This document shows, in pieces, positions 8,469 to 26,092 of a stretch of DNA of 28,943 nucleotides. The position numbers and the translations under genes are program-made. Below the pieces are notes generated by a model, which made no database searches, was not told where the DNA came from, and was given only the letters and a program-made list of their open reading frames with translations. Within the stretch, counting starts at the first letter, position 1, and every line of letters starts with the position of its first letter. This stretch comes from Octopus sinensis (taxonomy: Eukaryota), in contig NW_021833201.1 of NCBI RefSeq assembly GCF_006345805.1, positions 1-28,943 on the forward strand. Direction: 5' to 3'.

Positions 8469-10461
8469 GTTAGTTAGTTAGTTAGTTAATTTTTTGGCTC
8501 AAAAATCACAAAGCAAGGCCATGTATGGGGACATGGAGTTATATACAGGGTGGTGTTCATGCAAAGAGTTCAGGCCACTTGAGGTTAAGGGAGAATTTGA
8601 AATGAGCGGTCGTCGGCATCTTCACTATCTCGTCTTGCAGCTTCTTCCACGGATCCGCAACCCGGACGGAGAAAGCCCCTCTCCTTCGATTGAGATGAAA
8701 TCGTCGCAGATAGAGCTTTTCGGAATGACCCCGCAGCCGACGCTCTGGAGCAGGAGTGAAGAACAGCTTTTTCGAGAGGTTACACTTTCCGCTTATGATG
8801 TTGTGGGCGAGAATGAGATCACCACAGCGTCATCGTTTTTCTAGAGAATAAAGGTCGAGCGTCTTCAGGTTTTCTTCATAAGACAAATACTTGAGACCAA
8901 GAACCATGCGGGTAGCCAGCTTCTGGACTTTTTCGATATGCTGTATGTCTTTGAGGAGATAAGGAGAAGAGGCTTGAATCCCGTACTCCAATATGGGTCT
9001 CACCAGCATGACATAGAGCGGTAGGAATATGGCTGCTGTGAGCATTCCGAATGACCATCGAATCAAGAACAGAACTCCGCGTGCTTTGTTGGTAGCATGG
9101 ACGCACTGGGCCGAAGGCGGAAAGGAGGGATCCACCAAGATACCCAGGTCCTTTACCTGATCGGTCCTCTCCAGCAGCAGACGACCCGGTTCGAAATCAA
9201 GTTGAGTTGCAGGAGGAGAGCCAACAGGCAGATGACAGCACTTTGACACGTTCAGACACAGGTCCCATTCGTTAGACCATCTCCAAATTTGGTGGAGGCA
9301 TCGACGAAGATCCTCTATATCACCGCGAGGAGCGACCAGTTTGACATCGTCGGCAAATAGAAGGGCAAATCATTTATGAAGACTAAGAACAATAACGGCC
9401 CAAGCACTGAACCTTGAGGCACGCCACTGCTTGCACTGGAGACGTCGGACCGCGAACCATTAACTTGGACTTGGAAGGAGCGATCTGAGAGGAAGGCACC
9501 AACCCATCGTACAATATCCGGATGGAAACTATATGCTTGAAGCTTGACAAGTAATAGGCGGTGGTTTACCGAGTCAAAAGCTTTGGCAAAGTCCAATAAA
9601 ACGATGTCAACAGCATCACTATCATCGAGGATGCGCGTCACCAATTCTTCCATTACCAGTAAGCTGGTCAAGCATGATCTTTTCGGCACGAAGCCGTGTT
9701 GGGAATCAGTGATCGAGGCTGTGTTTAGGAGGTGGAGCATCATACTTTTCTAAGGATGGTTTCGAACATCTTGCTGATTATTGATGTAAGAGAAACCGGT
9801 CTGTAGTTAAGCGGGTCTTCGCGGCTCCCTTTTTTGAAAATTGGGCAGATTATCGCTGTTCTCCAGTCCGCAGGTATAACACCCGTCGCCAATGACATAT
9901 TGAATAGACGTGTTAAGGGCTCGCAGATGACCAGAGCCAACGCTTTGATAACCCTTGGGTGTATGCTGTCAGGGCCGTGACCCTTGTTGACATCGAGGGC
10001 TTGAATAACGCGTTCGACTTTGTCCCGCGTGATGACCAATCAAAGCATTGGAGGTACTGATCTATCAAATGGAGGGGGTTCAAAACCATCATCTTGTTTG
10101 AAAATAGTTGAAAAAGCCTCGGCAAATAATTGACTCTGTTGATAAGGGTCCTCAATCGATACGCCTGTTGAGTCTACCAACGTTGCAATTTGGTTGCTCA
10201 AGCGGGAATTCCGTTGGACATGGGCAAATAAGGTTTTTGGATTGCTACTGGCGTTTGCCGCGATTCCGCATTCATATCTGAAGCGTTCTTCCTTTTCAAT
10301 TTTCACGGCTCGGTCACGTTGAGTTTGTACACCTTAAAAGCTGCAGTCGAATCCAGATTTTTTAATTCAGCCCAAGCAATATCTCTGAGTTGAAGTTCTC
10401 GTTTAACCTTCTTCGTCAGCCAGGGCTTGTGTTTCTTCTTCTTGGGAAGCCCAACGGGAAC
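8469..10461 (-). mobile_element. 5'-truncated, decayed CR1-clade LINE (ORF2 RT pseudogene, 3' UTR and (TAAC)n tail)
   Basis: Broken ORFs 10306-8830 give KPWLT, GPDSIHPRV, PIFKKGSREDPLNYRPVSLTS, QHGFVPKRSC, LDFAKAFDSVNH, SGVPQGSVLGPLLF, LFADDVKL, KDLGILVD and LVRPILEY. The C-terminus reads RGDLI-like..LRGHSEKL..FSVRVADPW with a stop at 8557-8559. The 3' UTR has a stem-loop (CCATGT/ACATGG) and a GTTA tandem tail at 8469-8488. Several frameshifts and stops are present. Confidence 0.93.
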
Positions 10462-10471
10462 TAAATATATA

Positions 10472-11378
10472 TGTAGCTGGAGGAAATCGATTAGTAAACA
10501 ATATTATTTTATGTCGGAGTTAGCAGTTGTAACGATAAAAATTATATATAATTGCATACTGTAGGATGTGAAAGATGAACAATGCATGAAATTTGAAGGA
10601 AATATTTATTTACCATTACGAATTGTAACGTAACGGTAAATAAATATTCAGATATTGCTTGGGCTGAATTCAAAAATCTGGATTCGACTGCAGCTTTTGA
10701 GGTGTACAAAACTCAATGTGACCGAGCCGTGAAAATTGAAAAGGAAGAACGCTTCAGATATGAATACAGAATCGCGGCAAACTTTATATCGCATGCTTTT
10801 TGATCTATTATAACCTGTTCGACGAAGCATGCAATATAAAGTTTGTGCTTGTGTCCTTTTCATTGTTTAGTAGTAATTACCGAGAGAGATAGAATGATGT
10901 CGTAAGAAAACAGAATTAGAGCTAGTGGGAGTTGTAGCGTGTTGCCTCACAGTTGCTGACAGTAAACTTCATTTCTCGCTCTGACCAAGGTTCTAGGTGG
11001 TCAGCCAGACTTCGTTGTCACCAAAGTGACTAACTGATTGAGTCGTCACCATATGACTGGACAAGTTGCGTCGTCACCGACTGATTTTTGCTTGGGGTAT
11101 CCTTGCGTTTATCCAGAAGGATAGATATATCATTGAGAACAATAGATTTAGTTGGTGCTCTTGTTATCCATATTCTAGCTTTTGGTGATGTAGAATAGGT
11201 TAGAAAGGGTCAAGTGATGAAGACATTATTTCGGACTAGCTAAAGGCATCTGGAAAATGTAAAACTGCTGTCACAGAAAAACCATTGTTCTACTATGTGG
11301 AAAGATCTGTTGCACCGTTAGTTTAAATTTAGTTATGGTGGATCGAATCCACTTCATGCATGCAAGATCCCCTATTCA
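10472..11378 (-). mobile_element. Solo-LTR-like interspersed repeat, copy with internal rearrangement
   Basis: Colinear with 26214-26928; begins with TGTAG; minus-strand AATAAA near one end; no ORF. The LTR identity is inferred. Confidence 0.5.
10650..10782 (+). repeat. Inverted copy of CR1 LINE segment 10253-10384
   Basis: The reverse complement matches with only a handful of differences over ~132 bp; reads DIAWAEFKNLDSTAAFEVYKTQCDRAVKIEKEERFRYE in frame. Confidence 0.93.
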
Positions 11379-11534
11379 GACATGTGTTTGTTTGTTAGAA
11401 ATGTTGAGCTGATGAACAATAAAATACGGTTTTTTTTCCACAAGTTGAGTCGGGCAGACATATTTAAAGAAACGCATGAATAAATCTTTGCAGTTCACTG
11501 TTATTTTTTATTCTTAAATTCTTGTGTACAAGTA

Positions 11535-12606
11535 CCGTAATTGCCAGTGTATAAGCCTCACTCACGATTTTCAGTCCCCGACTGGAGAAAACGTGGGGAA
11601 ACCGGGAGATAACTGGGACTTATGAAAATAGAGAAATGCGAGATGAATAGAAACTTCAATTTCATGATGATTTCATACTTAACAAACATTTCCGACTGCA
11701 ATCATTGATACTCATAATTATTAATGGAAGAAGATAAAGTCCAGGTTTTAAATAAGAGAACGTCTTTTTATTATGTGTATTTATTATGAATTATTCATAT
11801 TGCGATCTTTATATTCTTTCTTGAAAATGGGTGGTCCTGAAAAGGACCGACCCTAATGGGTAGAGACTTCACTCAAAGTCTAAGAACTCTTCGTCGTCAG
11901 ACCTCGTGGGGTTGATCGTCTGCCAGTTCATCCTCGTCATCGCTGGAGTCAGACGAGTCGGTAGAGAGAGCTTCGCCTTCCCATAACATGTCATCTTCTT
12001 CCCGTCGAGCGCATTGGAGATGCAGCACTTCAGGAAAGCCCATTTTTCTGGAATCTCCTCCACTAGCAGATCGTCTGGAATTTCCTCCACTAGCAGGATC
12101 CATTTGCAGATCGTCCCCAAGTCTTTCTTCGTACGCCCGGTCGTTGGCCATCCAATCCTCCCAGCGGTGTTTCAGACGGTCCTTATACGGTTCGCTGATT
12201 GCAACATCAAGGGGTTGAAGAAAGGATGTCATTCCCCGGTAATCATTGTCACGTCGATGTTCAGACGACGTATCTTCACCTTGGTTTCTTCTGACTTGTG
12301 GCATCTGAATGCATCCAGGACCAGGAGACTCCTTCTCTGATGCAGTCCACTGATGCGCCGAACCCACACTACAAGAAACCAGTCCTCGATGAGTGCCTCG
12401 CCTATCCAAGCTTTCGCGTAGGCTTCAACAATGATCCCCTTCCTGAAACTTGGCGTCTTTGGATAGTATCTTCCTCTTAAAAATGACCTACGGTAGCAGC
12501 TTTCCCCTATCAGCCGTGCAAGCCAGGATCATCGTAAAACCGACTTTCTAGTGGCCCTTCGTGACGATTTCTATTGTCTTCTCCCCTTTCTCAGAAATAG
12601 TTCTTT
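11535..12606 (-). mobile_element. pogo/Tigger-family DNA transposon relic (DDE_1 transposase pseudogene plus 3' TIR)
   Basis: RTISEKGEKTIEIVTKGH*KVGFTMILACTADRGKLLP*VIFKRK, SLLVLDAFRCH, LQPLDVAISEPYKDRL and FLKCCISNALDG/EDDMLWE motifs. The end TA|CCGTAATTGCCAGTGTATAAGCCTCAC (11533-11561) resembles pogo-type TIRs. Stops, frameshifts and an internal 27-bp tandem duplication (~12047-12100) are present. Confidence 0.88.
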
Positions 12607-12613
12607 CTACTAC

Positions 12614-12820
12614 GGCTGCCAGCTGGCAGAAACGTTAGGACACCAGGCAAAAGTGCTTAGCGGCATTTCGTCCGTCTCAAAGTTCTGCCTTCAAATACCG
12701 CCAGGGTCAACGTTGCTCTTCATCCTTTCGAGGATGATACATTAAGTACCAGTCAAGTTGTGGCGTCGAAGTAATCGAAGGACCCATGCCCCCAAAATTT
12801 CAGGTCTTGTGCCTATTGTT
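12614..12820 (+). mobile_element. tRNA-derived Nin/Deu-domain SINE
   Basis: Head AGCTGGCAGAAACGTTAG, B-box-like TTCAAATACC, and the Nin/Deu-like core GGTCAACGTTGCTCTTCATCCTTTCGAGGATGATACATTAAGTACCAGT. Confidence 0.8.
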
Positions 12821-12825
12821 ATTGC

Positions 12826-13034
12826 TTTCAAGATTTGGCACTAGTCAAGAAATTTGGGGCAGTGGTTAATTCTACTACATCGATCTCATTATTGAACTGG
12901 TACTTAATTTGGTGACACCCAAAACAATGAAAGGCATATTCAACCTAGGCGGAATTTCAAGACAGAACTCTGAAACGGACAAAATGCCGCTAGGCATTTT
13001 TCTAGGCGTCCAAACAATTTCGTCAGCTCGACGG
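12826..13034 (-). mobile_element. Nin/Deu-domain SINE, inverted partner
   Basis: ACTGGTACTTAAT..ATGAAAGGCA..GGCGGAATTT..ACGGACAAAATGCCGCTAGGCATTT is the reverse complement of the same family. Confidence 0.8.
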
Positions 13035-13284
13035 TTGAAGGCAAACAAGATCGGAAATCGAGTTTCTAATTGGCTAAAATATCTGAAATTTAATTGCTTG
13101 AAATTCTTAGAAAATGTAAACTAGATTTTCATCTTGAGCATGCAAACCTGCACGAGTATTTCAGATTCTGATTGGCCGTTTTACTTTTGAAAAGGGATTT
13201 AGACAAAAAAATGAAAGAGATTGGTTAGAAACATGCAACTTTGTTGCCATGGAAATAGACAGAATGACGCTATTAAAACTTCTG

Positions 13285-13316
<32 letters not shown>

Positions 13317-13459
13317 TGTATGTATGTATGTATGTATGTATGTATGTATGGTTATATATGTCTGTATGTATGTAATGTATGTATGTATGTATGTATATAG
13401 TATGTATGTATGTATGTATATATTATGTATGTATAGAATGTATGTATGTATTATGTATG

Positions 13460-13493
<34 letters not shown>

Positions 13494-13562
13494 TGTATAT
13501 ATGTATGTATGTATGTATGTTGTAATATATGTATGGATGTATGTATGTATGTATGTATGTAT
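13285..13562. repeat. (TATG)n field
   Basis: Direct reading; much shorter in copy 2 (~20359-20416). Confidence 0.92.
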
Positions 13563-13805
13563 GTTGTCAAGCAATGCTACTTACAACACAGACACACAAA
13601 CCTATACACACATATATATATATATATATATATAAATGTATATACGACAGGCTTCTTTCAGTTTCCGTCTAGCAAATCCACTCACAAGGCTTTGGTCGAC
13701 CCGGGCTATAGCAGAAGACACTTGCCCAAGATGCCACGCAGTGGGACTGAACCCGAACCATGTGGTTGTTAAGCAAACTACTTACCACACAGCCACTCCT
13801 GCGCC
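13563..13805 (-). mobile_element. OR-type tRNA/CORE SINE, 3'-truncated
   Basis: Minus strand GGCGCAGGAGTGGCTGTGTGGTAAG (A-box-like), GGGTTCAGTCCC (B-box-like), CTTGGGCAAGTGTCTT (CORE-like). Confidence 0.9.
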
Positions 13806-14507
13806 TGTATGTATGTATGTGTGCATGTATGTATGTGTGTATGTTGTAGTATGTGTGTTTGTGTATTGTATGTATGTGTTTGTGTGTATGTATGTATGTA
13901 TGTAATTATGTATGTATGTATGTATGTATGTGTGTATGTATGTATGTAAGCATGTATGTGTGTATGTATATATGTATATATGTATGTATGTATGTGTATG
14001 TATGTATGTATGTATGTATGTATGTATGTATGTATGTATGTATGTATGTATGTATGTATGTACGTGTGTATATCTGTATGTATGTATGTATGTGTGTATG
14101 TATGCATGTGTGTGTATGTATGTATGTACGTATGTGTGAAAGCATGTATGTGTGCATGCATGTATGTATATCTGTATGCATGTAAGTATATCTGTATGTA
14201 TGAATGTACGTATGTGTGTAGGTGTGTATGTATGTATGTATTAATGTATGTGTGTATATCCGAATGTATGTATGTATGTATATATATGATGTAGTATTAA
14301 TGTATGTATGAATGTATGTCTGTATATCTTTTTGTGTGTATGTATGTGTCTAAGTATGTACGCATATCTGTATGTATGTATGTATGTATGTATATATATC
14401 TGTATGTATGTATGTATGTATATCTATATGTATGTATGTATGTATGTATATCTATATGTATGTATGTATGTATGTACATCTGTATGTATGAATGTATTCT
14501 GTATATC

Positions 14508-14539
<32 letters not shown>

Positions 14540-14607
14540 TGTATGTATATATGTATGTATATATTTCTGTATGTATGTCTATCTATATGTATGTATGTAT
14601 GTATTTA
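13806..14607. repeat. Complex (TATG)n field
   Basis: Direct reading. Confidence 0.92.
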
Positions 14608-15010
14608 TACTCTTACTCTTTACTCATTTAATTGTTTCAGTCATTTGACTGCGGCCATGCTAGAGCACCACCTTTAGTCGAGCAAATAGACCCAGTGAGT
14701 TATTCTTTGTAAGCCCAGTACTTATTCTATCGGTATCTGTTGCCGAACCGCTAAGTGAGGGGTATGTAAACACACCAGCATCGGTTGTCAAGCAATGCTA
14801 GGGTGACAAACACAGACACACAAACATATACACACATACATACATATATATATATATATAATATACATATATACGACAGGCTTCTTTCAAGGTTTTGGTC
14901 GGCCCGGGGCTATAGCAGAAGACACTTGCCAAAGATGCCACGCAGTGGGACTGAACCCGGGACCATGTGGTTGTTAAGCAAACTACTTACCACACAGCCA
15001 CTCCTGCGCC
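14608..15010 (-). mobile_element. OR-type SINE, near full-length (26-bp deletion at ~14889)
   Basis: Head, CORE, central microsatellite and AAAGAGT-repeat tail. Confidence 0.92.
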
Positions 15011-15579
15011 TGTATGTATGTATGTGTGTATGTATGTATGTATGTGTTTATGTATGTATGTATGTATGAACTAAAGCCAGCTGGGAATGAAGTAGGGATA
15101 CTTAAATATCTGATATTTACTTGCTTGAAATTCTTAGAAAATATAAACTAGATTTTCATCATTAGCATTTCAGGTTCTGATTGGCCATTTTACTTTAGAA
15201 ACAGGATGTTGCCATGGAAATAGACTGAATGACGCAATTGAAACTTGCTGAATTTTATCTAAACTGGGTAACACCCACACATACCTAGACATACACACTA
15301 TAGCACACACATACATAAACCCATCAACATACAAACTACAACATACACACGCATATATCTAACTACAACATACACACATGGCACACCGGAATGTGTATAG
15401 AAATCGTCTTATCTGGTTACATGAGAATAATTTGCTTTTCTGTGTGTCGTTAGGGTGGGGGTTATTCAGGGTGCAGTATTACTCAAATGCATGACTTGAC
15501 CCACTTCTCACTTGCCAATTAAATTTATTCAGAATTACAAGTAGATTTCTCAGAATAAGCTTTTTGTTGTTTTATGTAG

Positions 15580-16080
15580 GTATGTATATATATGTATGTA
15601 TGTAATGTATGTATGTACATCTGTATGTATGTATGTATGTATATCTTTATGTATGTATGTATGTATGTATGTATGTATGTATATCTTTATGTATGTATGT
15701 ACGTATGTGTGTATGTATGTATGTATATATGTGTATGTATGTATATCTGTATGTATGTATAACTGTATGTATATATGTATGTATGTGTGTATGTATGTAT
15801 GTATGTATGTACGTATGTGTGTATGTGCATATGTATGCATGTATGTATGTGTATGTATGTGTATGTATGTATATCTGTATATACGTATAACTGTATGTAT
15901 GTATAACTGTATGTATGTATGTATGTATGTATGTATGTATGACATCTGTATGTGCGTATGCACATCTGTATGTATGTGTGTATGTATGTATATGTGTATC
16001 TGTATGTATGTGTGTGTATGTATGTATGTATATCTGTATGTATGTATATCTATATATATCTATATGTATATATGTATGTA
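15580..16080. repeat. Complex (TATG)n field
   Basis: Direct reading. Confidence 0.92.
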
Positions 16081-16300
16081 TACTCTTCCTCTTTACTCTT
16101 TTACTGGTTTCAGTCGCTTGACTGCGGCCATGCTGGAGCACCGCCTTTAGTCCAGCAAATCGACCCCGGGAGTTATTCTTTGTAAGCCCAGTACTTATTC
16201 TATCGGTCTCTGTTACTGGACCGCTAAGTGACGGGTATGTAAACACACCAGCATCGGTTGTCAAGCAATGCTAGGTGGACAAACACAGACACACAAACAT

Positions 16301-16363
<63 letters not shown>

Positions 16364-16528
16364 TACGACAGGCTTTTTTCAGTTTCCGTCTACCAAATCC
16401 ACTCACAAGGCTTTGGTCGGCCCGAGGCTATAGCAGAAGACACTTGCCCAAGATGCCATGCAGTGGGACTGAACCCGGAACCAAGTGGTTTTTAAGCAAA
16501 CTGCTTCCCACACAGCCACTCCTGCGCC
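16081..16528 (-). mobile_element. OR-type SINE, full-length
   Basis: A/B-box head, CORE-like block, internal (TA)n(TG)n, 3' domain and AAAAGAGT tail. Confidence 0.93.
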
Positions 16529-16562
16529 TGTATGTATGTATGTATGTATGTGTGTATGTATG

Positions 16563-16918
16563 TACTAAAGCCAGCTGCGAATGAAGTAGGGATATTTCCA
16601 GAGAAGCACTCAACCCGAATACTGCCGGCATCAAATACTCTTCTACGAATTGTTCTTTGGTTAGGAACCTTGTCTTCTTGCGTTCAACCAGCTTGAATAG
16701 CTTCGGAAGAATTTCTGGTAAACTGGCTACAATGATAGCGTCATCCATTCGCTTGGTAGAGATTTGGGGGCGATCTGTACGCATATCAAATCCATATTTT
16801 AAATGGGTTTCGAGTTGTTTATTGACTTTGAAACAGTTCTCTGTGTCAGTTTTAATCTTTCACCAATTTGTCGAGTGCTGCATACTTCTTCGTACAGAAT
16901 ATTTATTTCAGCATTAGT
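16563..16918 (-). pseudogene. Decayed coding fragment of unknown, probably TE (gag/ORF1-like) origin
   Basis: Non-repetitive ~100-codon frame KIKTDTENCFKVNKQLETHLKYGFDMRTDRPQISTKRMDDAIIVASLPEILPKLFKLVERKKTRFLTKEQFVEEYLMPAVFGLSASLEISLLHSQLAL, cut by (TATG)n, with a probable frameshifted upstream part. Family not recognised. Confidence 0.35.
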
Positions 16919-17069
16919 TCACGACGAAAATCTTTGACTAGCTATTCTTTACAACGACAGGAAGATGACTAACAAGAAGGAAGAATATGTGTTTGTGACA
17001 ACCTATCAGAGATTGGATCGGTCAATCAGAAAACATCAACAGATCAAGGCTCACGCAGAAATCACGATC

Positions 17070-17501
17070 ATGACCAATCAAAGCATTGGAGGTACTGATC
17101 TATCAAATGGAGGGGGTTCAAAACCATCATCTTGTTTGAAAATAGTTGAAAAAGCCTCGGCAAATAATTGACTCTGTTGATAAGGGTCCTCAATCGATAC
17201 GCCTGTTGAGTCTACCAACGTTGCAATTTGGTTGCTCAAGCGGGAATTCCGTTGGACATGGGCAAATAAGGTTTTTGGATTGCTACTCTGGCGTTTGCCG
17301 CGATTCCGCATTCATATCTGAAGCGTTCTTCCTTTTCAATTTTCACGGCTCGGTCACGTTGAGTTTGTACACCTTAAAAGCTGCAGTCGAATCCAGATTT
17401 TTTAATTCAGCCCAAGCAATATCTCTGAGTTGAAGTTCTCGTTTAACCTTCTTCGTCAGCCAGGGCTTGTGTTTCTTCTTCTTGGGAAGCCCAACGGGAA
17501 C
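17070..17501 (-). mobile_element. Duplicated 5' piece of the CR1 LINE
   Basis: Identical to 10032-10461 except for a 2-bp insertion near 17287. Confidence 0.92.
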
Positions 17502-17511
17502 TAAATATATA

Positions 17512-18439
17512 TGTAGCTGGAGGAAATCGATTAGTAAACAATATTATTTTATGTCGGAGTTAGCAGTTGTAACGATAAAAATTATATATAATTGCATACT
17601 GTAGGATGTGAAAGATGAACAATGCATGAAATTTGAAGGAAATATTTATTTACCATTACGAATTGTAACGTAACGGTAAATAAATATTCAGATATTGCTT
17701 GGGCTGAATTCAAAAATCTGGATTCGACTGCAGCTTTTGAGGTGTACAAAACTCAATGTGACCGAGCCGTGAAAATTGAAAAGGAAGAACGCTTCAGATA
17801 TGAATACAGAATCGAGGCAAACTTTATATCGCATGATTTTTGATCTATTATAACCTGTTCGACGAACAGGTTATAATAGATCAAAAAGCATGCAATATAA
17901 AGTTTGTGCTTGTGTCCTTTTCATTGTTTAGTAGTAATTACCGAGAGAGATAGAATGATGTCGTAAGAAAACAGAATTAGAGCTAGTGGGAGTTGTAGCG
18001 TGTTGCCTCACAGTTGCTGACAGTAAACTTCATTTCTCGCTCTGACCAAGGTTCTAGGTGGTCAGCCAGACTTCGTTGTCACCAAAGTGACTAACTGATT
18101 GAGTCGTCACCATATGACTGGACAAGTTGCGTCGTCACCGACTGATTTTTGCTTGGGGTATCCTTGCGTTTATCCAGAAGGATAGATATATCATTGAGAA
18201 CAATAGATTTAGTTGGTGCTCTTGTTATCCATATTCTAGCTTTTGGTGATGTAGAATAGGTTAGAAGGGTCAAGTGATGAAGACATTGATTTCGGACTAG
18301 CTAAAGGCATCTGGAAAATGTAAAACTGCTGTCACAGAAAAACCATTGTTCTACTATGTGGAAAGATCTGTTGCACCGTTAGTTTAAATTTAGTTATGGT
18401 GGATCGAATCCACTTCATGCATGCAAGATCCCCTATTCA
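17512..18439 (-). mobile_element. Solo-LTR-like repeat (duplicate), containing inverted LINE piece 17690-17822
   Basis: Paralog of 10472-11378. Confidence 0.5.
17818..17906. repeat. Near-perfect hairpin: 43-bp arms (2 mismatches), 3-nt loop
   Basis: CAAACTTTATATCGCATGATTTTTGATCTATTATAACCTGTTC-gac-GAACAGGTTATAATAGATCAAAAAGCATGCAATATAAAGTTTG. Confidence 0.95.
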
Positions 18440-18594
18440 GACATGTGTTTGTTTGTTAGAAATGTTGAGCTGATGAACAATAAAATACGGTTTTTTTCCA
18501 CAAGTTGAGTCGGGCAGACATATTTAAAGAAACGCATGAATAAATCTTTGCAGTTCACTGTTATTTTTTATTCTTAAATTCTTGTGTACAAGTA

Positions 18595-19678
18595 CCGTAA
18601 TTGCCAGTGTATAAGCCTCACTCACGATTTTCAGTCCCCGACTGGAGAAAACGTGGGGAAACCGGGAGATAACTGGGACTTATGAAAATAGAGAAATGCG
18701 AGATGAATAGAAACTTCAATTTCATGATGATTTCATACTTAACAAACATTTCCGACTGCAATCATTGATACTCATAATTATTAATGGAAGAAGATAAAGT
18801 CCAGGTTTTAAATGTAAGAGATAATAAGAGAACGTCTTTTTATTATGTGTATTTATTATGATTTATTCATATTGCGATCTTTATATTCTTTCTTGAAAAT
18901 GGGTGGTCCTGAAAAGGACCGACCCTAATGGGTAGAGACTTCACTCAAAGTCTAAGAACTCTTCGTCGTCAGACCTCGTGGGGTTGATCGTCTGCCAGTT
19001 CATCCTCGTCATCGCTGGAGTCAGAAGAGTCGGTAGAGAGAGCTTCGCCTTCCCATAACATGTCATCTTCTTCCCGTCGAGCGCATTGGAGATGCAGCAC
19101 TTCAGGAAAGCCCATTTTTCTGGAATCTCCTCCACTAGCAGATCGTCTGGAATTTCCTCCACTAGCAGGATCCATTTGCAGATCGTCCCCAAGTCTTTCT
19201 TCGTACGCCCGGTCGTTGGCCATCCAATCCTCCCAGCGGTGTTTCAGACGGTCCTTATACAGTTCGCTGATTGCAACATCAAGGGGTTGAAGAAAGGATG
19301 TCATTCCCCGGTAATCATTGTCACGTCGATGTTCAGACGACGTATCTTCACCCTGGTTTCTTCTGACTTGTGGCATCTGAATGTATCCAGGACCAGGAGA
19401 CTCCTTCTCTGATGCAGTCCACTGATGCGCCGAACCCACACTACAAGAAACCAGTCCTCGATGAGTGCCTCGCCTATCCAAGCTTTCGCGTAGGCTTCAA
19501 CAATGATCCCCTTCCTGAAACTTGGCGTCTTTGGATAGTATCTTCCTCTTAAAAATGACCTACGGTAGCAGCTTTCCCCTATCAGCCGTGCAAGCCAGGA
19601 TCATCGTAAAACCGACTTTCTAGTGGCCCTTCGTGACGATTTCTATTGTCTTCTCCCCTTTCTCAGAAATAGTTCTTT
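18595..19678 (-). mobile_element. pogo/Tigger transposon relic (duplicate)
   Basis: Paralog of 11535-12606. Confidence 0.88.
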
Positions 19679-19685
19679 CTACTAC

Positions 19686-20106
19686 GGCTGCCAGCTGGCA
19701 GAAACGTTAGGACACCAGGCAAAAGTGCTTAGCGGCATTTCGTCCGTCTCAAAGTTCTGCCTTCAAATACCGCCAGGGTCAACGTTGCTCTTCATCCTTT
19801 CGAGGATGATACATTAATTACCAGTCAAGTTGTGGCGTCGAAGTAATCGAAGGACCCATGCCCCCAAAATTTCAGGTCTTGTGCCTATTGTTATTGCTTT
19901 CAAGATTTGGCACTAGTCAAGAAATTTGGGGCAGTGGTTAATTCTACTACATCGATCTCATTATTGAACTGGTACTTAATTTGGTGACACCCAAAACAAT
20001 GAAAGGCATATTCAACCTAGGCGGAATTTCAAGACAGAACTCTGAAACGGACAAAATGCCGCTAAGCATTTTTCTAGGCGTCCAAACAATTTCGTCAGCT
20101 CGACGG
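19686..20106. mobile_element. Inverted pair of Nin/Deu-domain SINEs (duplicate)
   Basis: Paralog of 12614-13034. Confidence 0.8.
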
Positions 20107-20387
20107 TTGAAGGCAAACAAGATCGGAAATCGAGTTTCTAATTGGCTAAAATATCTGAAATTTAATTGCTTGAAATTCTTAGAAAATGTAAACTAGATTT
20201 TCATCTTGAGCATGCAAAACTGCACGAGTATTTCAGATTCTGATTGGCCGTTTTACTTTTGAAAAGGGATTTAGACAAAAAAAATGAAAAGAGATTGGTT
20301 GAGAAACATGCAACTTTGTTGCCATGGAAATAGACAGAATGACGCTATTAAAACTTCTGTATATATGTATGTATATATGTATGTATG

Positions 20388-20416
<29 letters not shown>

Positions 20417-20418
<2 letters not shown>

Positions 20419-20656
20419 TGTCAAGCAATGCTAGGGTGACAAACACAGACACACAAACATATACACACATATATATATATATATAAATATATACGACAGG
20501 CTTCTTTCAGTTTCCGTCTACCAAATCCACTCACAAGGCTTTGGTCGACCCGGGGCTATAGCAGAAGACACTTGCCCAAGATGCCACGCAGTGGGACTGA
20601 ACCCGGAACCATGTGGTTGTTAAGCAAACTACTTACCACACAGCCACTCCTGCGCC
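20417..20656 (-). mobile_element. OR-type SINE, 3'-truncated (duplicate)
   Basis: Paralog of 13563-13805. Confidence 0.9.
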
Positions 20657-21362
20657 TGTATGTATGTATGTGTGCATGTATGTATGTGTGTATGTATGTA
20701 TGTGTGTACGTATGTATGTGTTTGTGTGTATGTATGTATGTATGTAATTATGTATGTATGTATGTATGTATGCATGTATGTGTGTATGTATGTATGTAAG
20801 CATGTATGTGTGTATGTATATATGTATATATGTATGTATGTATGTGTATGTATGTATGTATGTGTGTTTGTATGTGTGTTTGTATGTGTGTGTGTATGTA
20901 TGTATGTATGTGTGTATGTATGCATGTGTGTGTATGTATGTATGTACGTATGTGTGTATGTGTGAAAGCATGTATGTGTGCATGCATGTATGTATATCTG
21001 TATGTATGTATATCTGTATGCATGTAAGTATATCTGTATGTATGAATGTACGTATGTGTGTAGGTGTGTATGTATGTATGTATTAATGTATGTGTGTATA
21101 TCCGAATGTATGTATGTATGTATATCTATATGAATGTATGTATGAATGTATGTCTGTATATCTTTTTGTGTGTATGTATGTGTCTAAGTATGTACGTATA
21201 TCTGTATGTATGTATGTATGTATGTATGTATGTATATATATCTGTATGTATGTATGTATGTATATATATCTGTATGTATGTATGTATGTATGTATATCTA
21301 TATGTATGTATGTATGTATGTATGTATATCTATATGTATGTATGTATGTATGTATGTATATC

Positions 21363-21394
<32 letters not shown>

Positions 21395-21532
21395 TGTGTG
21401 TATGTATGTATGTTGTATGTATGAATGTATTCTGTATATCTATATGTATGTATGTATGTATGTATGTATATCTATATGTATGTATATATTTCTGTATGTA
21501 TGTCTATCTATATGTATGTATGTATGTATTTA

Positions 21533-21959
21533 TACTCTTACTCTTTACTCATTTAATTGTTTCAGTCATTTGACTGCGGCCATGCTAGAGCACCACCTTT
21601 AGTCGAGCAAATAGACCCAGTGAGTAATTCTTTGTAAGCCCAGTACTATTCTATCGTATATCTGTTGCCGAACCGCTAAGTGAGGGGTATGTAAACACAC
21701 CAGCATCGGTTGTCAAGCAATGCTAGGGTGACAAACACAGACACCAAAACATATACACACATACATACATATATATATATATAATATACATATATACGAC
21801 AGGCTTCTTTCAGTTTCCGTCTACCAAATCCACTCACAAGGTTTTGGTCGGCCCGGGGCTATAGCAGAAGACACTTGCCCAAGATGCCACGCAGTGGGAC
21901 TGAACCCGGGACCATGTGGTTGTTAAGCAAACTACTTACCACACAGCCACTCCTGCGCC
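21533..21959 (-). mobile_element. OR-type SINE, full-length (duplicate, without the 26-bp deletion)
   Basis: Paralog of 14608-15010. Confidence 0.92.
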
Positions 21960-22017
21960 TGTATGTATGTATGTGTGTATGTATGTATGTATGTGTTTAT
22001 GTATGTATGTATGTATG

Positions 22018-22049
<32 letters not shown>

Positions 22050-23049
22050 CTAAAGCCAGCTGGGAATGAAGTAGGGATATGTAAATATCTGATATTTACT
22101 TGCTTGAAATTCTTAGAAAATATAAACTAGATTTTCATCATTAGCATTTCAGGTTCTGATTGGCCATTTTACTTTAGAAACAGGATGTTGCCATGGAAAT
22201 AGACTGAATGACGCAATTGAAACTTGCTGAATTTTATCTAAACTGGGTAACACCCACACATACCTAGACATACACACTATAGCACACACATACATAAACC
22301 CATCAACATACAAACTACAACATACACACGCATATATCTAACTACAACATACACACATGGCACGCCAGAATGTGTATAGAAATCCTCTTATCTGGTTACA
22401 TGAGAATAATTTGCTTTTCTGTGTGTCGTTAGGGTGGGGGTTATTCAGGGTGCAGTATTCCTCAAATGCATGACTTGACCCACTTCTCACTTGCCACTTA
22501 AAGTTATTCAGAATTATCAGCTTTTTGTTGTTTTATGTAGGTATGTATATATATGTATGTATGTAATGTATGTAATGTATGTATGTACATCTGTATGTAT
22601 GTATGTATGTATATCTTTATGTATGTATGTATGTATGTATGTATGTATGTATGTATGTATGTACGTATGTGTGTATGTATGTATGTATATATGTGTATGT
22701 ATGTATATCTGTATGTATGTATAACTGTATGTATATATGTATGTATGTGTGTATGTATGTATGTATGTATATCTTTATGTATGTATGTATGTATGTGTGT
22801 ATGTGCATATGTATGTATGTATGTATGTGTATGTATGTATATCTGTATATACGTATAACTGTATGTATGTATAACTGTATGTATGTATGTATGTATGTAT
22901 GTATGTACATCTGTATGTGTGTATGCACATCTGTATGTATGTGTGTATGTATGTATATGTGTATCTGTATGTATGTATGTGTGTGTATGTATGTATGTAT
23001 ATCTGTATGTATGTATATCTATATATATCTATATGTATATATGTATGTA

Positions 23050-23265
23050 TACTCTTCCTCTTTACTCTTTTACTGGTTTCAGTCGCTTGACTGCGGCCAT
23101 GCTGGAGCACCGCCTTTAGTCCAGCAAATTGACCCCGGGAGTCATTCTTTGTAAGCCTAGTACTTATTCTATCGGTCTCTGTTACTGGACCGCTAAGTGA
23201 CGGGTATGTAAACACACCAGCATCGGTTGTCAAGCAATGCTAGGTGGACAAACACAGACACACAA

Positions 23266-23343
<78 letters not shown>

Positions 23344-23512
23344 TATATACGACAGGCTTCTTTCAGTTTCCGTCTACCAAATCCACTCACAAGGCTTCGG
23401 TCGGCCCGAGGCTATAGCAGAAGACACTTGCCCAAGATGCCACGCAGTGGGACTGAACCCGGAACCAAGTGATTTTTAAGCAAACTGCTTCCCACACAGC
23501 CACTCCTGCGCC
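23050..23512 (-). mobile_element. OR-type SINE, full-length (duplicate)
   Basis: Paralog of 16081-16528. Confidence 0.93.
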
Positions 23513-23590
23513 TGTATGTATGTATGTATGTATGTATGTATGTATGTGTGTATGTATGTGTGTATGTATGTATGTATGGGTGTATGTATG

Positions 23591-24206
23591 TACTAAAGCC
23601 AGCTGCGAATGAAGTAGGGATATTTCCAGAGAAGCACTCAACCCGAATACTGCCGGCATCAAATACTCTTCTACGAATTGTTCTTTGGTTAGGAACCTTG
23701 TCTTCTTGCGTTCAACCAGCTTGTATGGCTTCGGAAGACTTTCTGGTAAACTGGCTACAATGATAGCGTCATCCATTCGCTTGGTAGAGATTTGGGGGCG
23801 ATCTGTACGCATATCAAATCCATATTTTAAATGGGTTTCGAGTTGTTCATTGACTTTGAAACAGTTCTCTGTGTCATTTTAATCTTTCATCTTTCACCAA
23901 TTTGTCGAGTGCTGCATACTTCTTCGTACAGAATATTTATTTCAGCATTAGTTCACGATGAAAATCTTTGACTAGCTATTCTTTACAACGACAGGAAGAT
24001 GACTAACAAGAAGGAAGAATATGTGTTTAGTGACAACCTATCAGAGATTGGATCGGTCAATCAGAAAACTTCAACAGATCAGGCTCAAGCAGAAATCACG
24101 ATCATACTGACTGATAAAAGAGATTTGAAGCATCGACTAATGATTAGATATAGCATCATTTGGGTGGATTGTTGTTTATAAGTCCGTGAGTCGTCCATTC
24201 CGGCCA
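23591..24206 (-). pseudogene. Unknown decayed coding element (duplicate, with native upstream flank)
   Basis: Paralog of 16563-17069, continuing to 24206 where a (TA)n tract begins. Confidence 0.35.
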
Positions 24207-24229
24207 TATATATATATATATATATATAT

Positions 24230-24638
24230 ATTGTCGTGCAGTTAGTGTTTATACCTTGTTCAGAGATTTATTGTTGCTTATATACACTTTTTAAAAATCA
24301 GTGATGAAATGTTACTGGAAAAAGGATATAAATATTTGCATTGGGACTCCTTTCATCGAAAACCGGTGATTGTAGTGCGCTGATGACGGGTCACAACCCA
24401 GAAACTGCAGTCGGTGCGTATCACTTAGCTTATCGAGAGAAGCATGACCGCCCTACGCAAATACTGATAGGGCACAGAAAGTGTGCCTATAGCCAGCTGG
24501 AGGAGATGTTCTGCTGGGGCTACAAGCTACAGTAACACCCACCCTTAGTGGCTAGCCATATTGAGATTGCAAATATACCTCACATTGTCGTGTAGTTACT
24601 GTTTATATACCACGTTCGAGATATATTGTTGCGTATAT
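24230..24638 (+). mobile_element. Retrozyme-like / Penelope-associated non-coding element: 354-bp unit with ~55-bp terminal direct repeat, in (TA)n
   Basis: ATTGTCGTGCAGTTAGTGTTTATACC..GAGATTTATTGTTGCTTATATA (24230-24284) is repeated at 24584-24638; a hammerhead motif lies inside. Confidence 0.6.
24366..24424 (+). ncRNA. Type I hammerhead ribozyme motif (slightly degenerate)
   Basis: CTGATGA 24380-24386; stem II GGGT-caca-ACCC; GAAAC 24401-24405; palindromic stem III ACTGCAGT; GTC site 24410-24412; stem I GTGAT..GTGC / GTGC..ATCAC with an internal loop. Mismatches at the core-proximal pairs of stem I (G-G) and stem II (C-A). Confidence 0.68.
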
Positions 24639-24690
24639 ATATATATATACAAAGATATTTATATATATATATATAAATATATATATATAT

Positions 24691-25447
24691 ATTATATAAA
24701 AGGGCTTAGTAAAATAAATTACTTTGCCGCATACTGAACTCATTAGAAATAGCAGCTAAAAAACTTTTTTAAGGCTATTTCTAATACTTAAAGAAATCTC
24801 TCTCATATATAGTGTTTGCATAATTTAACTCACAAAAGTTTGGGGGTAATGACATCGAAAAATCAAATGCTAAGGTTATTCGAGAACGTACGTTTCAAGA
24901 TTAGTCAAAACAACATTTCTATCATCGGCTCGGAAATTCCTTGGTTTGGATTTGGAAACACTGAAAATAAGAACATACCCTCTCGAAGATCTGCTCCCAA
25001 CTAACAGTGTCAACAAATTCAAAATAAGCAAGCGAAGAATCTCTGTTCTCCCCTTTCCACCAGCGTTTAACCCACGCTGGTGGAAAGGGGAGAACAGAGA
25101 TTCTTCGCTTGCTTATTTTGAATTGTTGACACTGTTAGTTGGGAGCAGATCTTCGAGAGGGTATGTTCTTATTTTCAGTGTTTCCAAATCCAAACCAAGG
25201 AATTTCCGAGCCGATATAGAAATGTTGTTTTGACTAATCTTGAAACGTACGTTCTCGAATAACCTTAGCATTTGATTTTTCGATGTCATTACCCCCAAAC
25301 TTTTGTGAGTTAAATTATGCAACACTATATATGAGAGAGATTTTCTTTAAGTATTAGAAATAGCCTTAAAAAAGTTTTTTAGCTGCTATTTCTAATGAGT
25401 TCAGTATGCGGCAAAGTAATTTATTTTACTAAGCCCTTTTATATAAT
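24691..25447. repeat. Large palindrome: ~375-bp arms (24691-25066 / 25074-25447), 7-nt spacer
   Basis: The arms are reverse complements differing only by a few 1-bp indels. Confidence 0.95.
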
Positions 25448-26092
25448 GTAATAATTTGAATTCGCCTTGAATGGTCCCTTTGCATACTGAACACTTGGTG
25501 AAATTGATTAATAATTAATTAATTTTGCCCTCAATTGTTGAATTATAATTAATCTCCCTCTGATTAATGCTTCGACTTTACCGAAATAAGCATAGAGTTT
25601 GATGATTTTAACCCACGCTGGTGGAAAGGGGAGAACGAGATTCTTCGCTTGCTTATTTTGAATTTGTTGACACTGTTAGTTGGGAGCAGATCTTCGAGAG
25701 GGTATGTTCTTATTTTCAGTGTTTCCAAATCCAAACCAAGGAATTTCCGAGCCGATGATAGAAATGTTGTTTTGACTAATCTTGAAACGTACGTTCTCGA
25801 ATAACCTTAGCATTTGATTTTTCGATGTCATTACCACCAAACTTTTGTGAGTTAAATTATGCAAACACTATATAATGAGAGAGATTTTCTTTAAGTATTA
25901 GAAATAGCCTTAAAAAAGTTTTTTAGCTGCTATTTCTAATGAGTTCAGTATGCGGCAAAGTAATTTATTTTACTAAGCCCTTTTATATAATGTAATAATT
26001 TGAATTCGCCTTGAATGGTCCCTTTGCATACTGAACACTTGGTGAAATTGATTAATAATTAATTAATTTTGCCCTCAATTGTTGAAATTATA
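25066..26092. mobile_element. 541-bp unit in partial tandem (25066-25606, 25607-26092); with the inverted arm this gives a Penelope-like pseudo-LTR arrangement
   Basis: TTTAACCCACGCTGGTGGAAAGGGG starts at both 25066 and 25607; the whole structure is flanked by (TA)n. The PLE assignment rests on architecture only. Confidence 0.55.

What the first reader, a model, noticed from the sequence alone, without database searches (positions are those of the whole stretch)
24230..24638. Hammerhead-ribozyme-carrying 354-bp retrozyme-like element in a (TA)n site
Seen: a complete type I hammerhead topology (GTGAT-tgta-GTGCg CTGATGA cGGGTcacaACCCa GAAAC TGCA GTC gGTGC-gt-ATCAC) inside a non-coding 354-bp unit bounded by a ~55-bp direct repeat, with further hairpins (GCCCTA/TAGGGC, GGCAC/GTGCC). 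Known: type I hammerheads with a very short palindromic stem III occur in Penelope-like pLTRs and in animal non-LTR retrozymes, whose tandem monomers self-cleave and circularise. Inference: a monomer-plus-overhang insertion is what reverse transcription round a ~354-nt circular RNA would leave, so this may be a cephalopod retrozyme/circRNA family. This copy has G-G and C-A mismatches next to the core and may be inactive.
Basis: partly seen in the sequence, partly recalled or inferred. Interest (0 to 1): 0.8.

Follow-up and report, generated by a model that had tools for sequence, protein, structure and literature searches.

The report
Penelope-driven hammerhead retrozyme family
This is an old, damaged copy of a 353-base repeat, present in thousands of pieces in this genome, that carries a conserved hammerhead ribozyme fold and whose insertions bear the same two-ended footprint as Penelope jumping genes, so it is likely a non-coding hitchhiker copied by their enzyme, possibly from a circular RNA that was not shown here.

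Summary
Observation confirmed. 24230-24632 is one decayed copy (89% to the family majority) of a ~353-bp non-coding family with a type I hammerhead. A 27-nt motif occurs 3,225 times in G000, the ribozyme core 1,833 times (controls 0). Stems covary between subfamilies, and helix III stays self-complementary in 111 of 124 copies, fitting a dimer ribozyme. The G-G mismatch is this copy's own; the C-A is subfamily-wide.

Copies are not randomly permuted. They end at two fixed sites ~44 nt apart (173 and 217 nt past the cleavage site) and are 5'-truncated at variable points. They sit in AT-rich or (TA)n targets and often form head-to-head pairs with one arm at each site (64 of 65). That is the Penelope 'tail' signature of two-site internal reverse-transcription initiation. 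Young Neptune-like elements in the genome show it too, and two direct PLE-unit junctions were found. Arms run through the cleavage site without pile-up, so the template is a circle or an uncut tandem transcript; the overhang alone does not prove a circle. Cleavage, circles and expression are untested. Verdict: new member of the known non-LTR retrozymes, with footprint evidence for PLE mobilisation. The scan held no look-alike sequence; similar ideas were noted in other genomes.

The parts
24206..24231 (.). (TA)n target tract, left flank
24230..24632 (+). Single-arm insertion of subfamily SF1: 1.13 units, 3' end at fixed site E2 (219 nt past the cleavage site), 5' end 180 nt before the cleavage site
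   Evidence: 89% to the column majority of 65 copies
24230..24276 (+). First copy of the E1-E2 'tail' segment (belongs to the preceding, truncated unit)
24366..24424 (+). Type I hammerhead: stem Ib/Ia, CUGAUGA core (24380-24386), stem II (24387-24400), GAAA, helix III, GUC; lesions at 24374 and 24413 in this copy
24404..24411 (+). 8-nt palindromic helix III (ACTGCAGT), predicted to pair between two ribozymes
   Evidence: self-duplex -11.1 kcal/mol, no hairpin on its own
24412..24413 (+). Predicted self-cleavage site (GUC)
   Evidence: topology plus Rfam alignment of a young paralog; cleavage not tested
24583..24586 (+). Fixed family 3' end E1 (about 173 nt past the cleavage site), inferred reverse-transcription start site 1
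24584..24632 (+). Tail E1 to E2 (~44-47 nt); E2 is the inferred reverse-transcription start site 2 and this copy's 3' end
24633..24692 (.). (TA)n tract, right flank, shared with a younger 546-bp-unit element inserted next to it

Best explanation
The stretch is a decayed copy of a ~353-bp non-coding, hammerhead-bearing repeat family (a non-LTR retrozyme) that is likely copied into AT-rich and (TA)n sites in trans by the reverse transcriptase-endonuclease of Penelope-like elements (PLEs). Shown: family size, subfamilies of different ages, covarying ribozyme fold, two fixed 3' ends, variable 5' ends, one-of-each pairing of ends in head-to-head insertions, target duplications, the same footprint in resident PLEs. 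Inferred: tandem copies are transcribed; two ribozymes pair through the palindromic helix III and cut out a 353-nt monomer that would be ligated into a circle; a PLE protein dimer binds near the tail, nicks both DNA strands about 9-14 bp apart and starts cDNA at E1 on one strand and at E2 on the other; synthesis runs through the ribozyme site for a variable length (0.1 to 7 units) and the two cDNAs join through microhomology. On the template I put about 50% on a circle, 40% on an uncut tandem transcript and 10% on other routes. The window copy is probably catalytically impaired.
For: In 72 loci chosen by a 3' motif, not by the ribozyme (first 100 of 3,225 hits, all on contig C1), 106 of 117 arms end at 165-179 or 210-229 nt past the cleavage site. 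Head-to-head insertions with two canonical ends: E1+E2 64, E2+E2 1, E1+E1 0 among 188 insertions; 33, 0, 0 in the unbiased subset. 5' ends: 2 of 107 within 5 nt of the cleavage site (about 3 expected locally), 59 pass it, 9 pass it twice. Duplications of 7 bp or more that are not pure TA in 41 of 169, TA tract at the 3' flank in 103 of 169. PLE literature describes the same partial tandems, inverted 5'-truncated arm, one-sided tail and microsatellite bias, and ties the tail to two internal RT start sites, both-strand cutting and a predicted dimer (PMC11167929). G000 holds young PLEs with 775- and 781-aa RT-GIY-YIG frames and a CX4CxxC linker. PLE family D has two ends ~44-45 nt apart and is as young as SF3. 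Direct PLE-unit junctions with 2-nt overlaps at L167 and L194. Covariation score 0.292 against 0.193 shuffled (0 of 500) and at most 0.147 slid. Young units fold as circles far better than shuffles (z -10.4 and -4.4).
Against: No parent PLE sharing sequence with the unit was found in 109 PLE loci (the loci are redundant, about 7 families). Only 2 of 188 insertions join a PLE directly, and in L167 the PLE arm stops 25 nt short of its own E1, so insertion plus deletion is not excluded. 22 of 88 multi-arm insertions have at least one non-canonical end. The count of pairs with a double change (9) does not exceed the shuffles (245 of 500), and the 91 sequences are related and were chosen for an intact core. 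The window copy and an SF1 array unit fold no better than shuffles (z -0.3, -0.7). No cleavage, circle or transcript was shown; in a recent test only 1 of 9 predicted retrozyme dimers cleaved in vitro.
Confidence: 0.8

Rival explanations
1. One reading: the template is always a self-cleaved, ligated ~353-nt circular RNA, and every overhang or array is rolling reverse transcription round it.
For: Arms cross the cleavage site up to 7 times with no pile-up. Units within an insertion are more alike than the median between loci (SF1 0.948 vs 0.897, SF2 0.963 vs 0.928, SF3 0.993 vs 0.973). Young units form a long stem that brings the two cut ends together. Circles are shown for coral, mussel and axolotl retrozymes (PMC7229834). 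Inference: long arrays arise more easily from a circle than from mostly short donors.
Against: The best between-locus identities equal the within-insertion values (0.964, 0.971, 0.992) and most private variants are unshared, so single-template copying is not shown. Uncut RNA was the dominant substrate for an anole PLE and ribozyme mutants did not affect insertion. Natural arrays exist to serve as linear donors.
Confidence: 0.4
2. The ribozyme is a passenger: uncut read-through transcripts of tandem arrays are the only template, and no circle is involved.
For: PMC11167929; Naiad PLEs spread without a hammerhead; SF1 spread with a C-A pair at the base of stem II; resident PLE hammerhead-like motifs have non-canonical cores (CCGAAGA, TTGAAAA).
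Against: Core, stems and palindrome are kept across subfamilies 70-88% identical, with compensatory changes, which implies selection on the fold in source copies.
Confidence: 0.3
3. The units are orphan pseudo-LTR fragments of an autonomous PLE not yet sampled, that is 5'-truncated insertions made in cis, later expanded by DNA-level unequal crossover.
For: Same ends and target bias as PLEs; Xenopus retrozymes are homologous to PLE pseudo-LTRs and local amplification is proposed for them.
Against: Arms longer than one unit run on into the next unit, not into an ORF. Arrays have a fixed 3' end, a fractional 5' unit and often an inverted partner arm. No homologous PLE in 109 loci.
Confidence: 0.08
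4. An ordinary SINE, MITE or satellite with a chance hammerhead-like match.
For: Rfam misses this copy and the copy has no unusual folding energy.
Against: 1,833 core matches with control 0, covariation, Rfam Hammerhead_1 at E 3.9e-6 in young copies, and PLE-type ends.
Confidence: 0.02

Closest known systems
Metazoan non-LTR retrozymes (Cervera and de la Pena 2020, PMC7229834; Li, Clavereau, Pollet 2026 preprint 10.64898/2026.07.22.740005)
   Same: Non-coding unit of 150-450 bp (mussel 350-390 bp), type I hammerhead in each unit, monomers to tandem arrays, GC under 50%, target duplications longer than 4 bp, PLEs in the same genome.
   Different: Expression, cleavage and circles are untested here. 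Those papers argue for PLE mobilisation from co-occurrence and pseudo-LTR homology; here the evidence is the insertion footprint, and no homologous PLE was found. Neither main text mentions octopus or cephalopods; the 2020 supplement could not be read.
Endonuclease-bearing Penelope-like elements, Neptune/Nematis type, and the anole Poseidon element PAc (Craig et al. 2021, 10.1101/2021.04.23.441226; Frangieh et al. 2024, PMC11167929)
   Same: Partial tandems, inverted 5'-truncated arm, tail on one end, two fixed ends, AT-rich or (TA)n targets, hammerhead with palindromic helix III upstream of the ends.
   Different: No ORF; tail ~44 nt against the usual 30-40; near-canonical rather than minimal hammerhead; near-strict one-E1-one-E2 pairing is counted here, whereas PAc in vitro showed no strand difference in start site.
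Newt/axolotl satellite 2 hammerheads (as described in PMC7229834 and PMC4209133)
   Same: 330-350 bp repeats, short palindromic helix III, dimer cleavage; one axolotl family also has a mismatch at the base of helix II.
   Different: No sequence relation tested; this family is dispersed, with mostly 0.2-2 units per site.
Plant LTR retrozymes (PMC4918200, search listing only; features as summarised)
   Same: Non-autonomous retroelement with a hammerhead and a proposed circular RNA stage.
   Different: Type III hammerhead, LTRs, PBS/PPT, 4-bp duplications and Gypsy helpers in plants; here type I, no LTRs, 9-14 bp duplications.

Membership tests
Non-LTR retrozyme | Type I hammerhead with conserved core and covarying stems | tested here: met
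   the window copy itself has two stem I lesions
Non-LTR retrozyme | Short non-coding unit (150-450 bp), low GC, no LTR | tested here: met
   352-354 bp, GC 0.43-0.44, no ORF of 100 aa in the window unit
Non-LTR retrozyme | Tandem copies, each with a ribozyme | tested here: met
   5-unit array L019, 7-unit array L155; the window copy is a monomer
Non-LTR retrozyme | Dispersed insertions with target duplications longer than 4 bp | tested here: met
   41 of 169 insertions with a non-TA duplication of 7 bp or more, mostly 9-14; not readable in the window copy, which sits in (TA)n
Non-LTR retrozyme | Self-cleavage in vitro (monomer or dimer) | not testable with these tools
   needs transcription assay
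Non-LTR retrozyme | Expressed as abundant linear and circular monomer RNA | tested here: inconclusive
   no holder on record as RNA; contigs cannot show ends, strand or circles
Non-autonomous PLE-dependent element | Two fixed 3' ends with a tail, variable 5' truncation, inverted partner arm | tested here: met
Non-autonomous PLE-dependent element | Intact, young RT-GIY-YIG PLE in the same genome | tested here: met
   family D open frames up to 595 aa within 3.6-kb loci, full length not checked
Non-autonomous PLE-dependent element | Sequence homology to the pseudo-LTR of a resident PLE | tested here: inconclusive
   none in 109 PLE loci from about 7 families, a small sample of 5,029 first-look candidates
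Autonomous Penelope-like element | ORF encoding RT and GIY-YIG endonuclease | tested here: not met
   unit is non-coding; long arms run on into further units
Plant LTR retrozyme | Type III hammerhead within LTRs and 4-bp duplication | tested here: not met
   type I topology, 9-14 bp duplications
Rfam Hammerhead_1 (RF00163) | Score at or above gathering threshold 34 bits | tested here: not met
   32.2 bits for SF3; no hit at E up to 10 for the window copy or L006. Lowers formal Rfam membership, not the fold.

The most novel reading that the evidence does not exclude
These arrays are the genomic record of a PLE protein dimer reverse-transcribing small circular ribozyme RNAs, one subunit starting at E1 and the other at E2 on opposite DNA strands, with two RNA templates (held together through the palindromic helix III, and sometimes one PLE RNA plus one retrozyme RNA) consumed per insertion. 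This genome would then host at least two PLE-parasitic circRNA lineages with recent activity (353 nt and 546 nt), each with its own tail length.
Probability: 0.2. Interest if true: 0.75.

Novelty: new member of a known kind. Interest (0 to 1): 0.5.

Why it matters
What mobilises animal retrozymes is still inferred from co-occurrence and pseudo-LTR homology. This family carries the PLE-specific two-start-site footprint in thousands of pieces, with near-strict pairing of the two ends and young candidate helpers in the same genome. That makes two open questions directly testable: whether a PLE enzyme copies a retrozyme in trans, and whether it uses a circle or an uncut multimer. The element class itself is known, and the window copy is an old, damaged one; the young subfamilies are the ones to assay.

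Tried and rejected
Rfam at gathering level on the whole window: 0 hits; at E up to 10 on 24100-24800 only unrelated weak hits. Folding of the window unit: z -0.76 linear, -0.27 as a ring, uninformative because the copy is decayed.

A unit-like copy upstream of a 775-aa PLE ORF (L087) looked like a shared pseudo-LTR. Rejected: none of the other 39 scored copies of that PLE carries it; it is an independent SF2 insertion in a TA tract. Search for a parent PLE: no homology in 89 + 20 PLE loci apart from L087/L095/L195, where a unit is inserted beside or joined to the PLE. PLE fragments near units at L004, L010, L011, L137, L168 and L191 are separated by TA tracts or other DNA and were not counted as chimeras.

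A linear monomer cut at both ribozymes as main template: rejected, no 5' pile-up at the cleavage site. Shared-private-variant test for one circle read repeatedly: inconclusive (5 shared vs 67 unshared in SF1, 8 vs 46 in SF2, 35 vs 65 in SF3, 31 of the 35 from one array).

Expression: no RNA holder listed. Four runs only guessed to be RNA were laid as contigs at 80% likeness; contigs cover 25-27 of 30 bins and summed depth is lower 5' of the cleavage site. Contigs cannot show ends or levels, 5' truncation alone gives a 2-3-fold skew, and subfamily divergence adds more, so I draw nothing from it.

L002-L004 are not independent insertions: they share flanks with the window. Literature: four searches pairing retrozyme, hammerhead, ribozyme or Penelope with octopus or cephalopod and two on tail or initiation found no description of this family or of tail footprints in retrozymes. 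Two cephalopod repeat papers do not mention ribozymes; a squid genome paper lists 235 Hammerhead_1 hits. The library lacks most subscription papers and Repbase/Dfam, and the supplements of PMC7229834 and the preprints could not be read, so the family may exist there under another name.

Full report
OBSERVATION. The stretch is non-coding. Rfam finds nothing relevant on this copy. In the own genome G000 (2.72 Gb) the 409-bp query gave 3,539 first-look candidates, of which 40 were scored, yielding 86 matches on many contigs including a tandem array with 352-bp period. Exact-pattern counts: 195 for this subfamily's ribozyme core, 1,833 for a wider core, 3,225 for a 27-nt motif in the 3' part; reversed controls were 0 each time.

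THE WINDOW COPY. Against 65 segments spanning the ribozyme it is 89% identical to the column majority, fifth lowest. G24413 and A24374 break stem I where the family has C or T. The C-A at the base of stem II is shared by the subfamily. The same insertion recurs at L002-L004, which share flanks; L004 has the pairing C. The copy runs from 180 nt before to 219 nt after the cleavage site, 1.13 units.

THE RIBOZYME. Subfamilies: SF1 (the window's, old), SF2 (95-98% among top hits), SF3 (youngest, 7-unit array L155 at 96-100%) and older ones. SF1 and SF3 are about 73% identical. Among 124 intact-core copies from 114 loci, helix III is CTGCAG 49, CTCGAG 36, CTCGGG 22, others 17, and is self-complementary (G-U allowed) in 111. 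The inner pair swaps G-C to C-G, which keeps the palindrome but cannot close a hairpin, so I infer a two-ribozyme helix as described for metazoan type I hammerheads (PMC4209133, passages). On 91 distinct sequences 91.8% of cells pair (85.9% shuffled); covariation score 0.292 against 0.193 (0 of 500) and at most 0.147 for slid structures. The number of pairs with double changes (9) is not above the shuffles (245 of 500), and the sequences are related and pre-selected for an intact core. The first pair of stem II is the weak spot (62 of 91 unpaired). Rfam Hammerhead_1 scores SF3 at 32.2 bits, E 3.9e-6, just under the threshold, and misses an SF1 copy. Folded as rings, SF2 and SF3 units beat 40 shuffles (z -10.4, -4.4) through a long stem extending helix I; SF1 and the window copy do not.

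INSERTION ANATOMY. To avoid selecting for the ribozyme I took the first 100 of the 3,225 motif hits (72 loci, all on contig C1). Of 117 arms of 35 nt or more, 59 end at 165-179 nt (E1) and 47 at 210-229 nt (E2) past the cleavage site; 11 end elsewhere. In young copies the modes are 173 and 216. 5' ends are spread out: of 107 arms, 2 lie within 5 nt of the cleavage site (about 3 expected), 59 pass it and 9 pass it twice. Over all 176 loci (18 duplicate fetches dropped; 188 insertions) head-to-head pairs were E1+E2 64, E2+E2 1, E1+E1 0, 22 with a non-canonical end, 1 other arrangement; single arms were E2 51, E1 40, other 9. The unbiased subset gave 33 E1+E2, no same-end pair, 8 with one odd end. 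Arms meet with 0-4 nt overlap in most cases. Duplications of 7 bp or more that are not pure TA flank 41 of 169 insertions, mostly 9-14 bp and AT-rich; 103 of 169 have a TA tract at the 3' flank.

WHAT THIS MATCHES. Craig et al. describe PLE insertions as 5'-truncated partial tandems, often with an adjacent inverted arm, a 30-40 bp tail on one end and microsatellite bias (passages). Frangieh et al. show that an anole PLE protein cuts both strands at AT-rich sites and starts reverse transcription at two internal RNA sites that bound the tail, is predicted to be a dimer, and uses uncut RNA preferentially (PMC11167929, parts 1-2 of 4). The unit therefore behaves as a PLE substrate. Because both arms of a pair cover the same unit sequence, they need two RNAs or two passes over one (inference).

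CANDIDATE HELPERS. A GIY-YIG search gave 5,029 candidates, 150 scored. Family A (775 aa; copies mostly 99-100% identical) and family B (781 aa) carry RT and GIY-YIG domains (RVT_1 just under its cut-off) and a CX4CxxC linker, the mark of the Neptune/Nematis clades; no tree was built. Their 3' regions hold hammerhead-like motifs with palindromic helix III. Tail lengths read from alignments are about 30 nt (A), 36-38 nt (B) and 44-45 nt (D), the last matching the unit. At L167 an inverted family D 3' arm and a D RT fragment join an SF3 arm directly with a 2-nt overlap; D copies are 96-98% identical to that fragment, the age of SF3. At L194 a family C 3' UTR runs straight into a unit. These are 2 of 188 insertions, and insertion with deletion is not excluded. 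No PLE homologous to the unit was found in 109 loci.

CIRCLE OR NOT. A cut linear monomer is excluded as main template by the absence of a pile-up. Circle and uncut multimer both fit. For the circle: selection on the ribozyme and the end-joining stem, arrays up to 7 units with fractional 5' ends, and circles shown in coral, mussel and axolotl (PMC7229834, parts 2-4 of 6). Against: the PAc result, the inconclusive private-variant test, and only 1 of 9 predicted dimers cleaving in the 2026 preprint (parts 1-3 of 5). RNA data gave no usable answer.

NOVELTY. The class is known: non-LTR retrozymes, proposed to depend on PLEs. I found no description of this family or of tail footprints in retrozymes (passages of PMC6962438, PMC13282606, PMC8967140). 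The library is incomplete and some supplements were unreadable (one of the files was not searched). The scan's index had no look-alike sequence and two related notes on other genomes. Verdict: new member of a known kind, interest 0.5, carried by the footprint evidence and the young subfamilies rather than by this copy.

Noticed in passing
window 24688-26092: A second, much younger family sits in the same TA tract: ~546-bp unit, copies 98-99% identical, many tandem arrays on many contigs (749 candidates, 40 scored, 258 matches). Head-to-head two-arm layout (centre ~25066) with ends 197 and 293 nt past a putative cleavage site, so a ~96-nt tail. It has a hammerhead-like motif with a CCGATGA core, 4-bp stem I and palindromic helix III ACGTACGT (putative sites 24885 on -, 25253 and 25795 on +). 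No similarity to the 353-bp unit, no Rfam hit, no stop-free frame. Likely a second, recently active retrozyme-like family; deserves its own study.
   Followed up: partly
L087, L081, L196-L219, L168: Resident PLE families carry hammerhead-like motifs with non-canonical cores (CCGAAGA, TTGAAAA, TTGATAA) but intact stems and palindromic helix III, fixed across many young copies.
   Followed up: partly
G000 contig C1, 72 loci: 5' stop points cluster about 42-98 nt past the cleavage site, and again one unit further on (-297 to -255), a region of hairpins; possibly structure-induced RT stops. Not tested statistically.
   Followed up: no
window 24230: The 5' end of the window copy falls almost exactly at E1 of the preceding unit, so the element is one unit plus exactly the tail; no general pile-up there, probably chance.
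   Followed up: partly
L020:2185-2684: A 50-bp piece of the unit (covering the 5' half of the ribozyme) is repeated about ten times in tandem upstream of a full copy.
   Followed up: no
window 10032-17071 and 17070-24105: Large tandem duplication of about 7 kb (98% over 3.3 kb, 89% over the microsatellite-rich rest); real duplication or assembly artefact.
   Followed up: no
window 8830-9749 (-): Two frames of 179 and 144 aa that look like fragments of a LINE-type reverse transcriptase (judged by eye from recalled motifs, not searched).
   Followed up: no
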